A stretch of 64,000 bases of DNA, taken from Callorhinchus milii (Eukaryota). The stretch spans positions 118,172,001 to 118,236,000 of the forward strand of contig NW_024704742.1 of the NCBI RefSeq assembly GCF_018977255.1. The letters are read 5' to 3'. The notes beneath the pieces were generated by a model. That model did not search any database. It saw only the letters and a list, made by a program, of their open reading frames with translations, and had not been told where the DNA came from. Made by a program: the position numbers and the translations under genes. Every line of letters starts with the position of its first letter. Position 1 is the first letter of the stretch. This document shows, one piece after another, positions 1-30,250 of the stretch.

Positions 1-527
1 TATTGATTATGTTGCTGAAATAAAAGGCTGAATCCAAAGTGTAAGATTTCAGTTATAGACATGTGGGATATGCTCAGAATCAATATGGTACTCATCTTCC
101 AGTATATTTGAAAGAAGCCATTTCTCTCTCGTAATTATCTTAACAGAACCTAAAAATCTAGTTGCTAGTATTGACTGGACAATATGTAACAATATGTAAC
201 TAACCCAATAGATCTAAAAACAGATTATTCTATGCAGCAGATGGCCTCAATCAAGGCATCTTAATTTACAAGTCGCCCGCGGAGAATTGCCCCTGATGAA
301 CTCTGAAGATCCCCTCTTTGTCAGATGGTGTCAACCCATCATTGGGCAGCTTCTGTCAGAAGCACTGAAACAGAGGTATCTCCAAATTAGTTTACATAAC
401 CCGGTTATTTAGGCACAATTTGTCATAAAAAGTCATATAAATTAGGATTCCTCTTTGTGCCATCAGCACACTTATTTAAGTTGCACTTATTTAAAATGAA
501 TAGTAATAATCATGTTAATTTTTTTAC

Positions 528-603
528 CCCAACTATTCTCTTCATAGCCTCCAGTTTAAGGGAATCCTTGCTGCTCTCCAACATCTGATGCAGATCTTCA
601 TTT
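528..603 (-). CDS. AP3B1: AP-3 complex subunit beta-1, coding exon 2 (gene continues beyond left edge of window)
   Basis: Minus strand reads ccag|A AAT GAA GAT CTG CAT CAG ATG TTG GAG AGC AGC AAG GAT TCC CTT AAA CTG GAG GCT ATG AAG AGA ATA GTT GGG|gtaaaa = (K)NEDLHQMLESSKDSLKLEAMKRIVG. This matches human NEDLKQMLESNKDSAKLDAMKRIVG. 76 nt, AG/GT flanks, phase-2 start fits exon 1. Confidence 0.96.
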
Positions 604-899
604 CTGGAGTAAAAAAGGAAAAAAGATTACTCCTACACCCACATATTCAACTACACAGAAAATAAGGAATAGGAAATTGCTTAAGGGTTCAAAAATGGCT
701 CCCACAATGCCCTTAATGGGTAAGGTATTAACAGGTACAATACTGGACTACACAATAAAAGATTGCAGGTACGAAATTTGGGTGTGTGTTAGTTTGCTGA
801 TTCTAGTGACCATGGAAGATTGAAGGGCAAAAATCAGTCAGGATTTCTGCTACTGATGGCTATCGAGAAAGTACTCCCAAAAGCTGAACCGTAAGTAGA

Positions 900-1848
900 T
901 ACAATACAAAATTACATTTGTATAGTACCTTTCACGTCAGGAGGACATAGCAAGGCGCTGGACAGTCAGGGATTTGGACCCGGGCTGGGGGTCGGGATCA
1001 GAGAGGGTAGAGGTCAGGGTGGGTAGCCAAAGAGGAGGGTTTTTAGACGAGCCTTGAAGGAGGCAAGGAAGAACCGAGGCGAAGGGAATATGGGATTGAT
1101 ATTCCATAGGGTGAGGGCAGCAAGGCTGAAGGCCCGACCGATGATGGTGGGGCGGGCTGGGAGGGGGAATTGTGGAAAAGGCCACAGCCTGCTGAAAGGA
1201 GGGAGTGGATAGATTGATATGGGGTCAGCAGGTCACAGCGTTAGGGAGGAGCAAATCGTGGAGGGCCTTGAAGGCGAGGACGAGATTTGTGAACTCTATC
1301 CTCTGGGGGATGGGGAGCCAGTGGATCCGGACAAGGGTGGGATTGATGGGGTCACGGAGCCTGGTGCGGGTGGACGCCAACTGCAGACTTCTGGATGATC
1401 TGTAATTTGTGGAGATTTGGGGAGGTGGACAAGCAGTGAATTGACATAGTCGAGCCTAGATGTGATGAATGCGTGATGAGGGATTCAGCGGCCTGTGGGG
1501 TGAGGCAGTGGTGGAGCCGGGCGATGTTGCGGAGATGGGGGTTATGGCACTGATGTGGAGTAGAAAGGACAGTTGAGGGTCAAACAAGACGCCAAGGTCC
1601 TGGACTGGCTCAGTGAGGTGGAGTGTTCACCTCTGGATATCATGAATGCGTGGACGAGGGTTTTGGCGGCCTGAGGTCTGGAGGCGGTGACAACCAGGAG
1701 AGCCTCGGTTTTGTGGACATTCAACTGTAGAAAGCTAGCTCTAATCCAGGACTTGATGTCTGACAGATATTCTGTCAGGACAGCAGTGGTTCTGGAGTCG
1801 AGCATGTAGGCAGAGATATAAAGTTGGGTGTCATCTGCATACATGTGA
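900..1848 (-). mobile_element. L2-clade LINE 3' fragment(s), internally deleted
   Basis: MYADDTQLY RT motif at about 1844, SFLQLNVHKTE, and the family 3' tail at 900-965. Confidence 0.9.
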
Positions 1849-2518
1849 AGACAAGATTATTGGGCAATGACATTTTTACACAAAAAATGGCCAATTTCAG
1901 GGTTATTGGGTCGTCATCGATGTCACTTCTTGCTATGCGCATGCGCAGTAAACAAAAAGTGACTCCAGCAATGACACAATGACCTAAGTCATCAGGTCTT
2001 GATAAACTTTCTTCCTCAATGAAGTGCTGTCCATGATGTCCATTATTTCTGAGAAAGAAGGAAGTTTCTCCCAGTGCCCTGGCCAAACAATTCCCTAAAT
2101 AAATTCATCCCTCACTCCCTGGCTGTTTGTGGAAGATTCCGTACGGAAACTGGCTGATGCATTCGCCATCAAAATACACACAGTCACTGCACTTTGCAGT
2201 ATATCCTGAAACGCGTTTTGAAACAACAATGAAATAAGGTGCTACAGTACAAAAGTACATTTGTAAAGTGCTTTTCACATCGGGAGGACGTCCATTTTGC
2301 TATATCAAAATGCAAGGATTATTATTTATAACATGTGCAGCCAACAGGAAATGACCATTTCTTAACTGTGCCACAGTGCTGTTCCCGATGGAAAAATCTA
2401 AAATGTCTGACAAATTCTCAACAGGGATATTTTGTAGCGATCTGAAGAAAGAATATTAACAGTTAAAAGGTTAGCTTCAACATAATGACCACAATCATTT
2501 GATCTAGCATAAACATAC

Positions 2519-2643
2519 CCAATCAAACACGGTTCATTTCCGCAGTTGCTCTCACTCAGTCCCTGTTCCTCTGGACTCTGGGATGGGCTCAGCGTTAGTT
2601 GAAGAGTATCTGCAACCAACAGCATATTCTTCACCGAAGCCAT
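2519..2643 (-). CDS. AP3B1: Candidate alternative first coding exon of AP3B1 (MASVKNMLLVADTLQLTLSPSQSPEEQGLSESNCGNEPCLIG)
   Basis: Strong Kozak context GCAATGG at 2643; open for 41 codons + 2 nt; ends at a GG|GTATGT donor in phase 2, the phase exon 2 requires. Non-repetitive sequence. No transcript evidence available. Confidence 0.5.
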
Positions 2644-3914
2644 TGCATCTAGTCAGACTGGTCTTAACTATAGGAATGGGTTTCTGAATCCTACTGCTTC
2701 TCCAACAGCATACTGTGCATGGCACAGTATCAGTCACATGATCATACAACCTGTGATAGGTTAAAACACCCTACATTTACAGTAGCGCCTTTAAAATATT
2801 CCAATTCTTGGAACTGCTTCCCTTTGTAAACATTCCACTGCTATCACTAAGTCACAATATCCCTTTTGCACATTTTGGAACTTAATCAGAACAATTCTTC
2901 CTGTCTCAATGACCTCTAAAATCTGAGTTTTAAAAATATACGGCAACTAAGTGCAATTTGCTAGATTATGTTGCAACAATGTTGTATAAAGAAAATGAAC
3001 ACTGATAAAAGTTTTTTTAATTTCAACTAAAAGCACTGAGAATATTAAAATACTTGATGAAATCAAATTTGTTTGCAGAACTACCCCTAATAAAGCAATC
3101 AGTAAAAGTTATCGGTTTTGATCAAAAAACAAAAAAAGGTCGTAAAACCACCACAAAGTAACAAAGCACTGAAACAAAAGACGCTTTCTAGAAGCAACAG
3201 CAGGGAGTGTTCTGAATATGTGGCCTGCGAATTGTTCAACAGGTATTGCACAATAAATAAGGTGAAGGCTTGGTCCAATTTAATAGACAAGCGACTCAAA
3301 CTTTTCTGCATTCCTGTAAAATAATTATTAGCTTATCCACAAGCCACTGCTTTCATTTTGCTGCTTCATTACACTTATCCTTCTCAGACATCAGAGTCTG
3401 GTTATTATTGGCTGCCTGCCATGTTTGCCTACAGAAAGCAGTCACTCCACTTTAGAGGAAGTCCTGCGAAATGCTTTGAAGTGGTTTCCCAAGGTGTAAT
3501 ATCACTTTAAGGGTTAAAGCACAATTAAGAAAAAGCCAATGAGACAAAGACAGGAAGTATAAAAGATTTCTGGGAGTGGAATAAATATGTTTATGGTTAA
3601 TGGTTTGGAGAGCTTTGAGTAGAGAATAAAGAAACTTAAGATCACACTTGTATGTACTCTGGATTGGGTGTTATTACAAAAGGCACCAAGGATATCATCA
3701 GACTACAAGATGAGAGAAAATCACGTGGATTATTTACAAAAAGGTTTTCATGCGCTGAGGGTAGAAAAAGATCGGGAAGTGAGCAGAGTTCCAGCTGACA
3801 GGCCTGAGAGACATCGAACATCTAAGCAGTTGCTGGAATTGCAAGATGCAAATCCTTTTGCGTATCTTGGAAATTAGACTCCATTGCACCCGTGATTTCC
3901 TGATCTTGTAGTTG

Positions 3915-4991
3915 AGAACAGGCTTACCCTTAGGTAGTTAACTTCCACATGTATGCGGATGACACCCAACTCTACCTTTCCTCCTCTACTCTCAACTCCA
4001 CGACCACCGATGTCCTGACAGCTGCCTGTCCGACATCGAGTCCTGGACGATAGACAACTTTCTTCAGCTCAACGTGCGTAAACCTGAGGCCCTCCTGATT
4101 GGCTCACGTCAGCGCCTCCGCACCTCAGGCGCTGACAGCATCAGCATCCAAGGCTGCACTCTCCACCTCTCAAAGACAGTCAGGAACCTTGGGGTTCTGT
4201 TCGACCCTGAGCTGTCCTTTCTCCCTCATATCCGCTCCACAACTGGCACCGCCTTCCATCACCTCCGGAACATCGCCAGATTACGGCACTACCTCACCCC
4301 TCACGCTGCTGAAACACTGGTCCACGCCTTTGTCACCTCAAGGCTGGACTATGGGAACTCTCTCCTCGTCGGCCTTCCCGCCACCTCCCTCCACAAGCTG
4401 CAGGTCATTCAGAACTCTGCAGCTCGTGTACTGTCCCGCACCAGGCTTCGGGACCACATCACTCCCACCCTCGCTCGCCTCCACTGGCTCCCCATCCCCC
4501 AGAGGATCGAATTCAAGATCCTCATCCTCACCTACAAGGCCATTCACGGCCTTGCTCCCTCCTACCTCTCCAACCTACTATCCCCCTACCCACCTGCCCG
4601 TACCCTCCGTTCCTCTGGCTCCGGTCTGCTCCACATCCCCCGCCCCAACCGCCCTACCATCGGTGGTCGGGCCTTCAGCCTCTCAGCCCCAGGCTCTGGA
4701 ACTCCATCCCCCAGTGCCTTCGCCGCCTCCTCCCTTTCCTCCTTCAAGGCCGGTCTCAAAACCTTTCTCTTTGACCGTGCCTTCAGCTCCCCTCTCGACT
4801 CTCTACCCCTCCTCGCTCCCTCCCTTCCCTCCCCTCACCCTGACCATTTCCCCCTCCTCGCTCCCTCCCTTCCCTCCCCTCACCCTGACCATTTCCCCCC
4901 TGCTCGGGTCATGACCCAACTGTGCAGCGCCTTGGGACGTCCTCCTGATGTGAAAGGCGCTTTATAAATGGAATCTTGTTGTTGTTGTTGT
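3915..4991 (+). mobile_element. Young 5'-truncated L2-clade LINE (CmiLINE-like)
   Basis: FHMYADDTQLY at about 3944; long ORF 4074-4967 with RNLGVLFDPELSF, SRLDYGNSLL, LHWLPI; stem-loop tail plus (TTG)n. Confidence 0.95.
4806..4895 (+). repeat. 45-bp tandem duplication in the L2 3' UTR
   Basis: cccctcctcgctccctcccttccctcccctcaccctgaccatttc occurs twice here and once in the sister copy near 20655-20700. Confidence 0.9.
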
Positions 4992-16649: not shown

Positions 16650-17330
16650 TGAAGTCGCGCCCGAAAACCACCGCCGGCCGACCCGACGTGTCCGTGTCAC
16701 TTACTTCTTGAAATCTGAGCTGAAGAGGCCAATCCCGGGAGCACCAACTCCCGAAGTCACCGCAGTTGCATCTTGGCCCAATTCGGTGGTCTCCCCTCCC
16801 AGGCCCCGGTCTCCTTGGTCGTTGTAAGACACGTTGTTACTCGCCATGATTGCCTGAAGCTGACTTCCTGGGGATCTGTCGGTCGGTCGGTCGGTGGGTG
16901 ACAAGGCCGCGGCTGATTTGGTTGCGAGTCGCTTTTTTTGTTTTCGGAGACTTTTCTTTCAGCCCGAAAGTGACTCTCAGACACACACACACACACACAC
17001 GCACCACCGCCCGCCCGCGGCTACCGGAAGTGTGACAGGGAGTCACCTGACTCGGGATCACATGACGCTGCGGCTGCCAAGGCGACCACGGCGGGTGACG
17101 CCACGTGCCAATCGCAGCTCGGCTTCCCGTGGGACTCGCGCACGCGCAGGAAAAGATTCCCACCCCCTCCCCCTCCCCCCCCCCACCTCACCACCACCTC
17201 ACCGATTGGGCGGAGAACACGTCACCAGGTGGCCACGTGGCGGGAAGCCCTACCCGGGAGACCTGGGGCGGGAGCGGAGGCCATTGGTGCGCTGCAGTGT
17301 CAGCCCCGGCTCCGTGGGCAGTGCTCTCGG
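16650..17330 (-). promoter_or_regulatory. AP3B1 CpG-island promoter
   Basis: CpG-rich block around exon 1. ETS CCGGAAGT 17024-17031, GTCACCTGAC 17042-17051, TCACATGA 17058-17065, CACGTG 17102-17107 and 17234-17239, several CCAAT/ATTGG boxes, GC box near 17265, (CA)n 16981-17001. Confidence 0.85.
16705..16847 (-). CDS. AP3B1: AP-3 complex subunit beta-1, coding exon 1
   Basis: MASNNVSYNDQGDRGLGGETTELGQDATAVTSGVGAPGIGLFSSDFK+AA|gtaagt resembles human MSSNSFPYNEQSGGGEATELGQEATSTISPSGAFGLFSSDLKK. Lies in a CpG island; strong GTAAGT donor, phase 2. Confidence 0.95.
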
Positions 17331-29619: not shown

Positions 29620-30250
29620 CAATTCAAACAACAGCGGCAGAAAAGCCGAACGCGAACCGAACGGCGTAACCGGACAGTTTGACTGTCAAACAGCTAACGG
29701 CCGCCCCCGCCTGGCGACGAGCAGCTCGAGCGTCACCTGACACCCCGCTCGCTCGAGCTTCACCCCACGTGACCGGCAGGGGGGCTCGCTCGCGGGGCTG
29801 ACGTACGGCTGGTCGCGTGACCCACGCGGCGTCACTTCCGGAGCGGCCATCTTCTTGTTGTCGGATGTGAACCGAGTGGTGGTTTAAAGGGGGGGCGGCG
29901 GCGGCGGCGCTCACAGACAAGAGAAAGGCGTCGGTAATCAGCGGAGATCGGCTGTTGTGTGACAGACGCAGAGACAGGTGCTCAGGATCATCCACTATGT
30001 CGGACTTTGACAGCAACCCCTTCGCTGACCCCGAGTTCAATAATCCCTTCAAGGTAAAGCGAAGCCGACAAGCATCTGTTTTGTGTGTTGAGGTGAGGCC
30101 GAGGCTCCAGGGCCCTCCTCCCCGTCACTGGACAGACCCTGAGCCCCGGCCCCGGGCCCTCCGCGTCCCTGGCAGCAGGTGACAGGAGCCGCCCAGCTCG
30201 TCCCAAACCCGCTGCCGAGCTGAGCTGCATCACCCGCAGCGAAAACATTC
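29620..30250 (+). promoter_or_regulatory. SCAMP1 CpG-island promoter / 5' UTR
   Basis: CpG-rich. GC box CCGCCCC at 29701, GTCACCTGAC 29732-29741, CACGTGAC 29766-29773, GTCACTTCCGG (ETS) 29831-29841, YY1-type CGGCCATCTT 29844-29853, all upstream of ATG 29997. Confidence 0.85.
29997..30053 (+). CDS. SCAMP1: Secretory carrier-associated membrane protein 1, exon 1
   Basis: MSDFDSNPFADPEFNNPFK|gtaaag; two NPF motifs, nearly identical to the human SCAMP1 N-terminus. Confidence 0.97.

What the first reader, a model, noticed from the sequence alone, without database searches (positions are those of the whole stretch)
2519..2643. Hidden alternative N-terminal exon for AP3B1
Seen: in intron 1, 1.9 kb before exon 2, an ATG in strong context (GCAATGG) opens 125 nt ending at GG|GTATGT. 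The phase (2) is what exon 2 needs, giving MASVKNMLLVADTLQLTLSPSQSPEEQGLSESNCGNEPCLIG-NEDLHQMLESSK.... It begins MAS like the canonical exon and has similar length (125 versus 143 nt). I recall predicted non-mammalian AP-3 beta isoforms starting MASVK(K)LL, but this is unverified. Inference: a second promoter gives an AP-3 beta subunit with a different N-terminal extension, possibly tissue-specific and lost in mammals.
Basis: partly seen in the sequence, partly recalled or inferred. Interest (0 to 1): 0.7.

Follow-up and report, generated by a model that had tools for sequence, protein, structure and literature searches.

The report
Ancient alternative first exon of AP3B1
In the elephant shark, the gene for a cargo-sorting protein (AP-3 beta-1) has a second, spliced first exon, shared from sharks to marsupials, that replaces the tail known to plug the complex's cargo pocket with a different conserved peptide of untested function.

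Summary
Real. The window is Callorhinchus milii AP3B1 (minus strand). The 125-nt frame 2643-2519 is spliced to exon 2 in an RNA-like run (joint 603/2519, GT-AG), beside the canonical exon 1 joint. Database AP3B1 models from sharks, ray-finned fishes, lungfish, frogs, lizard, turtle, birds and marsupials carry the same head directly before exon 2 (127 of 133 similarity-selected proteins). It has a conserved core of about 27 residues and a variable linker, and matches no Pfam family or PDB chain. So it is not hidden from automated annotation (UniProt A0A4W3K0V7), but ten paper searches listed nothing describing it. It is not lost in all mammals: marsupials keep it. No placental carrier was found, which is weak evidence. 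Canonical exon 1 encodes the beta3 tail that cryo-EM shows plugging the sigma3 dileucine pocket, so this isoform swaps that tail (inferred). The new head looks like a partner-binding linear motif with an EExxL pseudo-dileucine pattern. Its partner, promoter, tissue and translation are untested.

The parts
2519..2643 (-). Coding part of the alternative first exon of AP3B1: 41 codons plus 2 nt; conserved core residues 4-30, variable linker 31-42
   Evidence: (joint)
2644..2857 (-). Transcribed leader of the same exon as far as the spliced contig reaches (214 nt, seven short upstream ATG frames, in-frame stop 12 nt before the ATG). True 5' end unknown
   Evidence: table 8 record 8 (2519-2857)
604..2518 (-). 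1915-nt GT-AG intron between the alternative exon and exon 2
   Evidence: table 5
528..603 (-). AP3B1 exon 2 (76 nt), shared by both isoforms; start of the folded trunk
16705..16847 (-). Coding part of canonical exon 1 (143 nt), encoding the beta3 N-terminal tail that the alternative exon replaces
   Evidence: joint to exon 2 seen as a loose end in X1 (table 7, matched by eye); aligns to human beta3A chains

Best explanation
An alternative, coding first exon of AP3B1 that dates from the common ancestor of jawed vertebrates. SHOWN: it is spliced to exon 2 in frame, occurs beside the canonical form, and its peptide is conserved from chimaera to marsupials. INFERRED (about 0.9): it is transcribed from its own promoter in intron 1 and translated, so this beta3A lacks everything encoded by exon 1. 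INFERRED from published structures (about 0.85): exon 1 encodes the tail that plugs the sigma3 dileucine-cargo pocket, so the isoform loses that plug. INFERRED (about 0.7): the new head is a flexible, tethered protein-binding motif (short helix, L-x-L-x-L segment, EExxL) that changes how this AP-3 handles dileucine cargo. Two versions: it binds a partner outside the pocket and leaves the pocket open (about 0.4), or its EExxL acts as a tethered pseudo-cargo in the sigma3/delta site (about 0.3).
For: Splice joint with GT-AG ends in X1, none in DNA-like X3. Head present directly before exon 2 in 127 of 133 retrieved proteins; E25 and E26 invariant in 29 of 29 chosen taxa, L29 and L8 in 27 of 29, L14 in 26 of 29. 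Outside sharks, 8-17 of 27 core residues match the chimaera against 1-3 of 12 linker residues. Unspliced read-through frames end in GY/RY (29 of 34) or stop right after a final Leu (5 of 34), both as a phase-2 GT donor would give. AlphaFold2 leaves residues 1-40 unpacked (block pLDDT 35-44) and starts the confident trunk at the exon 2 boundary. PMC11670113 and PMC13178560 report the beta3 N-terminal extension in the sigma3 dileucine pocket and its absence there when dileucine cargo is bound.
Against: No partner, peptide evidence or start site was tested. The joint rests on one contig in one run whose RNA status is a guess. Seven upstream ATGs lie in the 214-nt leader, one overlapping the main ATG out of frame. 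The residue after EExxL is L or I only in the two marsupials, so it is not a full dileucine signal. The passages read do not name the plugging residues; placing them in exon 1 is my inference. The 133 proteins were selected by similarity to this head and are teleost-heavy. The AlphaFold2 model is mediocre overall (mean pLDDT 59.4, pTM 0.40) and was made on the zebra shark sequence P0002.
Confidence: 0.6

Rival explanations
1. The exon is an internal cassette (or hybrid) exon spliced after canonical exon 1, so the protein keeps the canonical tail and gains an insert.
For: 8 of 127 motif-bearing models (sturgeon, hake, Gambusia, three Amazona, two Columba) join the end of exon 1 to this exon.
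Against: In the chimaera an in-frame stop lies 12 nt before the ATG, none of the four pyrimidine-rich acceptor candidates between 3100 and 2644 gives a length divisible by 3, and the AG nearest the ATG (5 nt before it) gives 130 nt. The spliced contig runs 214 nt upstream along genomic sequence. The join points of those 8 models differ between species, as prediction artefacts would. Most models start with their own Met.
Confidence: 0.07
2. The head is a membrane-binding amphipathic helix like those of delta and mu3, adding curvature or targeting.
For: AlphaFold2 draws a low-confidence helix at residues 2-12; AP-3 uses such helices; frogs and marsupials reach hydrophobic moments of 0.41-0.49.
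Against: Mean moment 0.30 over 29 taxa, 0.04-0.16 in birds; the core is net negative in 24 of 29 taxa; the invariant residues are two glutamates.
Confidence: 0.1
3. The head controls the fate of the protein (stability, assembly, or targeting to a compartment) rather than cargo gating.
For: It is an N-terminal, disordered, conserved motif with no family match.
Against: No positive sign. The start position differs between cartilaginous and bony vertebrates while the internal core is kept, which fits an internal binding motif better than a signal read from the N-terminus.
Confidence: 0.12
4. Unproductive transcript: a cryptic exon that is spliced but not translated or not functional.
For: Seven upstream ATGs; lower contig depth than exon 2 in X1 (13.7 against 111.5, a poor measure).
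Against: Amino-acid pattern, frame and donor phase are kept from chimaera to marsupials while the linker drifts.
Confidence: 0.03

Closest known systems
Canonical beta3A (AP3B1) N-terminal extension, human AP-3 structures (PDB 9C58/9C59/9C5B; PMC11670113, PMC13178560)
   Same: Same position: a flexible tail in front of the first trunk helix, encoded by a phase-2 first exon of similar size, joined to the same exon 2.
   Different: No sequence relationship (profile gives no hit on canonical heads P0111, P0120). The new head lacks the G-L-F-S-S-D stretch of the canonical tail and has its conserved core 12-17 residues away from the trunk.
Database models of the same isoform: UniProt A0A4W3K0V7 (C. 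milii) and NCBI 'AP-3 complex subunit beta-1 isoform X' models of sharks, fishes, frogs, reptiles, birds, marsupials
   Same: Same exon and peptide.
   Different: Automated names only, no function. The chimaera model starts at the second Met (2625) and drops six residues including the conserved V-K; four sharks support the ATG at 2643.
Acidic dileucine sorting signal [DE]xxxL[LI]
   Same: EExx[LIF] in 126 of 127 carriers; a second [DE]xxx[LVI][TS][LFV] pattern in 102 of 127.
   Different: Last position is T, A, N or S except in the two marsupials; it sits on the adaptor, not on a cargo; binding untested.
AP-3 subunit paralogue switches (beta3A/beta3B, mu3A/mu3B, sigma3A/sigma3B)
   Same: A way to make cell-type variants of AP-3 (PMC8806629 passages).
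   Different: Made by promoter choice in one gene and changes only the regulatory tail.

Membership tests
AP3B1 (beta3A) orthologue | Trunk closest to beta3A rather than beta3B | tested here: met
   Chimaera protein P0111 matches human beta3A chains at 1159 bits. Carriers share 477-519 of about 560 trunk residues with P0001 (full-length ones) against 426-437 of about 526 with the beta-2-like P0092.
AP3B1 (beta3A) orthologue | Head-to-head neighbour SCAMP1 | tested here: met
   SCAMP-type frames on the plus strand near 30,000 and 48,020. The human arrangement and the search motifs are recalled.
Alternative first exon | Spliced to a shared downstream exon | tested here: met
   Joint 603/2519 in X1.
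Alternative first exon | No upstream exon joined to it | tested here: inconclusive
   Contig follows genomic sequence to its end at 2857; no in-frame acceptor in the chimaera. Contigs drop rare forms, 456 loose-end rows were not shown, and 8 of 127 models elsewhere join exon 1 to it.
Alternative first exon | Own promoter and start site | not testable with these tools
   Only contigs were held for these runs; no consensus TATA box within 3300-2644.
Alternative first exon | Coding: frame and peptide conserved | tested here: met
   dN/dS not run, since no orthologous DNA was held.
Alternative first exon | Protein is made | not testable with these tools
   No proteomics or ribosome profiling.
Acidic dileucine motif [DE]xxxL[LI] | Acidic residue at -4 and Leu at 0 | tested here: met
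   EExx[LIF] in 126 of 127.
Acidic dileucine motif [DE]xxxL[LI] | Leu or Ile at +1 | tested here: not met
   2 of 127, both marsupials. Not filed as a member.
Acidic dileucine motif [DE]xxxL[LI] | Binds the sigma3/delta pocket | not testable with these tools
Membrane amphipathic helix | High hydrophobic moment with neutral or basic polar face across species | tested here: not met
   Mean moment 0.30; core net negative in 24 of 29 taxa.
Any Pfam family or solved-structure chain | Significant sequence match | tested here: not met
   Best Pfam E 0.058 on 1 of 21 members; best PDB E 0.45 and 3.1; no usable Atlas hit.

The most novel reading that the evidence does not exclude
Most jawed vertebrates make a second AP-3 whose autoinhibitory beta3 tail is exchanged, by promoter choice, for a conserved motif that resets the dileucine-cargo gate or recruits a cell-type-specific partner; placental mammals lost it, which is why work on human and mouse AP-3 missed it.
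Probability: 0.35. Interest if true: 0.8.

Novelty: new variant of a known kind. Interest (0 to 1): 0.6.

Why it matters
How the beta3 tail gates dileucine cargo is an open point in both recent AP-3 structure papers. This exon is a natural swap of exactly that tail, kept across jawed vertebrates, so it offers a ready test of the gating model and points to an unstudied AP-3 form in zebrafish, Xenopus and chicken. It also bears on knockouts in those animals: a lesion in canonical exon 1 would leave this isoform intact.

Tried and rejected
No whole genome is held for the window and the cluster look-up could not be made, so the source annotation of P0001 and isoforms hidden inside 90% clusters were not seen. 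No listed holder was on record as RNA. Runs X2 and X9 cover exon 2 but show no depth over 2521-2924; contigs drop rare forms and tissues are not given, so this is not counted as evidence of tissue specificity. Placental loss: no placental name among the 120 listed of 3056 hits or the 22 hits of 241 candidates with the wallaby query, but one search also missed known carriers (turtle P0079, frog P0006), so the blank is weak; no monotreme, crocodilian, coelacanth or jawless fish name appeared either. Profile search of 1.84 billion representatives: 40 hits, 34 are this exon, 6 are repeat-like proteins that I set aside; the library is unnamed. A recalled resemblance to the VAMP7 longin-binding segment of Hrb got no support from PDB sequence searches. 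Single-chain AlphaFold2 showed no confident packing of the head on its own chain. Atlas search gave nothing usable. Earlier scan notes: none near, none by sequence, three unrelated genes by words. Paper searches listed no paper on this isoform; I judged most listings by title and abstract start only, and subscription journals are largely missing. The supplement of PMC13178560 held only 100 characters of text, so supplementary figures naming the plugging residues were not seen. No complex prediction and no fold search were run.

Full report
1. Observation. The gene lies on the minus strand. An ATG at 2643 (GCAATGG) opens 125 nt to 2519, followed by GTATGT; phase 2 fits exon 2 at 603-528, and the joined frame continues into the AP3B1 trunk. 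Canonical exon 1 codes from 16847 to 16705, 143 nt, phase 2; intron 1 is 16,101 nt. By itself the pattern is modest evidence: it is the only strong-context candidate in the intron, but 12.5% of 200 first-order Markov introns gave one.

2. Identity. The 42-residue peptide hit 1 of 6 candidates: UniProt A0A4W3K0V7, AP-3 complex subunit beta of Callorhinchus milii, 100% identical over 86% of the query. That model is already joined to exon 2 but starts at the second Met. The canonical chimaera protein matches human beta3A chains, and SCAMP-type frames lie head to head on the plus strand (the human arrangement is recalled).

3. RNA. Four runs were laid on 400-3400, all as contigs. In X1 (RNA by guess) one 368-nt contig of depth 13.7 covers 2519-2857 and jumps to 603, skipping 1915 nt with GT-AG ends. 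The same run has a loose end at 603 whose letters match the end of canonical exon 1 (compared by eye), so both forms occur in one run. X3 behaves like DNA (even depth, long unspliced contigs) and has no such joint. X2 and X9 cover exon 2 only; that blank is not counted as evidence. Contigs cannot give the start site, strand or level.

4. Conservation. Searching with residues 1-80 of P0001 gave 3056 hits, of which the best 120 were listed; a wallaby query added 13 more proteins. A profile of the head scores at least 28.6 bits in 127 of these 133, always within 70 residues before exon 2; the six others carry canonical or unrelated heads. Named carriers include four sharks, sturgeon, many teleosts, lungfish, frogs, a lizard, a turtle, birds, and two marsupials. 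The set is selected by similarity and teleost-heavy, so I also aligned 29 taxa chosen across clades: E25 and E26 29 of 29, [VIM]4 29, [TS]17 29, [KR]5 28, L8 27, L29 27, L14 26, A11 25, L18 25. Outside sharks the core keeps 8-17 of 27 residues and the linker 1-3 of 12. The profile search of 1.84 billion representatives returned 40 hits; 34 are unspliced read-throughs of this exon, and their ends fit a phase-2 GT donor (29 GY/RY, 5 ending at Leu-stop), and 6 are repeat-like proteins set aside. So the exon predates the split of cartilaginous and bony fishes (roughly 420-460 million years, recalled). Bony vertebrates begin about 13 residues earlier than sharks. No placental carrier and no AP3B2 carrier was seen; the one model labelled beta-2 (P0048) is beta-1 by its trunk. 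The placental blank is weak, because 90% clustering can hide isoforms and one search missed known carriers.

5. First exon or cassette. Eight of 127 models join exon 1 to this exon, at differing points. In the chimaera an in-frame stop lies 12 nt before the ATG, no tested acceptor gives an in-frame cassette, and the spliced contig runs 214 nt upstream on genomic sequence. A first exon is the better reading. The leader holds seven short upstream frames, one overlapping the main ATG, which may limit translation or mean that most transcripts start further downstream.

6. Mechanism. AlphaFold2 on 69 aligned isoforms (zebra shark P0002 first) gives residues 1-40 low confidence (block pLDDT 44, 39, 43, 35), with tentative helices at 2-12 and 24-30, and a confident trunk from the exon 2 boundary. 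So everything in front of the trunk comes from the first exon. PMC11670113 (passages and section 10 read) reports the beta3 N-terminal extension in the sigma3 dileucine pocket of cargo-bound AP-3. PMC13178560 (passages read) calls it a pseudo-dileucine motif and finds it displaced on tubules with dileucine cargo. Neither text that I read names the residues; that the plug is in exon 1 is inference from position. The alternative isoform then loses the plug and gains a conserved, unfolded motif on a variable linker, the usual anatomy of a binding motif. It carries EExx[LIF] in 126 of 127 carriers, a full dileucine match only in the two marsupials. I put about 0.4 on a partner outside the pocket, 0.3 on a tethered pseudo-cargo, 0.1 on a membrane helix (mean moment 0.30, mostly acidic), 0.12 on stability or targeting, 0.07 on a cassette, 0.03 on no function. 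No complex could be folded because no sigma3 or delta sequence was held.

7. Known or new. The head matches no Pfam family, PDB chain or Atlas cluster. The isoform is in automated annotation for many species, so the sequence is not new. Ten paper searches listed no description of it; a review of AP complexes (PMC8806629, 12 of 23 passages read) mentions only paralogue isoforms of beta3 in those passages. Other listed papers were seen as listings only. From memory, unverified: human AP3B1 has a variant with an alternative 5' exon and a downstream start; one search did not test this.

8. Verdict. Observation confirmed, interpretation supported with corrections. An alternative first exon is an ordinary device, but one that swaps a structurally defined regulatory tail of AP-3 and is kept from chimaera to marsupials, apparently undescribed, deserves follow-up. 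Interest 0.6; new variant of a known kind.

Noticed in passing
window ~29,997 onward and ~48,020, plus strand: SCAMP-type coding frames (SCAMP1-like), head to head with AP3B1 about 13 kb from its first exon.
   Followed up: partly
window 2625 versus 2643, minus strand: UniProt A0A4W3K0V7 starts at the second Met; four shark models and the conserved V-K favour the ATG at 2643.
   Followed up: yes
window 2644-2680, minus strand: The frame just upstream of the ATG reads L-D-A before Met, like V-D-A in the longer sturgeon-type head (P0017, P0134), with two stops; possibly a remnant of the bony-vertebrate extension.
   Followed up: no
window 2858-3126: Run X1 has further depth (1.7-8.7) upstream of the spliced contig; may be longer 5' ends or unspliced RNA.
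   Followed up: no
window ~895-1815, 2180-2330 and ~4000-4900: High-copy repeats (very high depth in all four runs for the first two); the long ones look like LINE reverse-transcriptase remnants by eye, not tested.
   Followed up: no
P0048 (Nibea albiflora): Labelled AP-3 beta-2 by its source but beta-1 by trunk identity (485 of 560 to P0001, 431 of 526 to P0092).
   Followed up: yes
bird proteins P0087, P0117, P0123, P0130, P0133: Bird heads have a one-residue gap and a basic core, unlike all other carriers.
   Followed up: no
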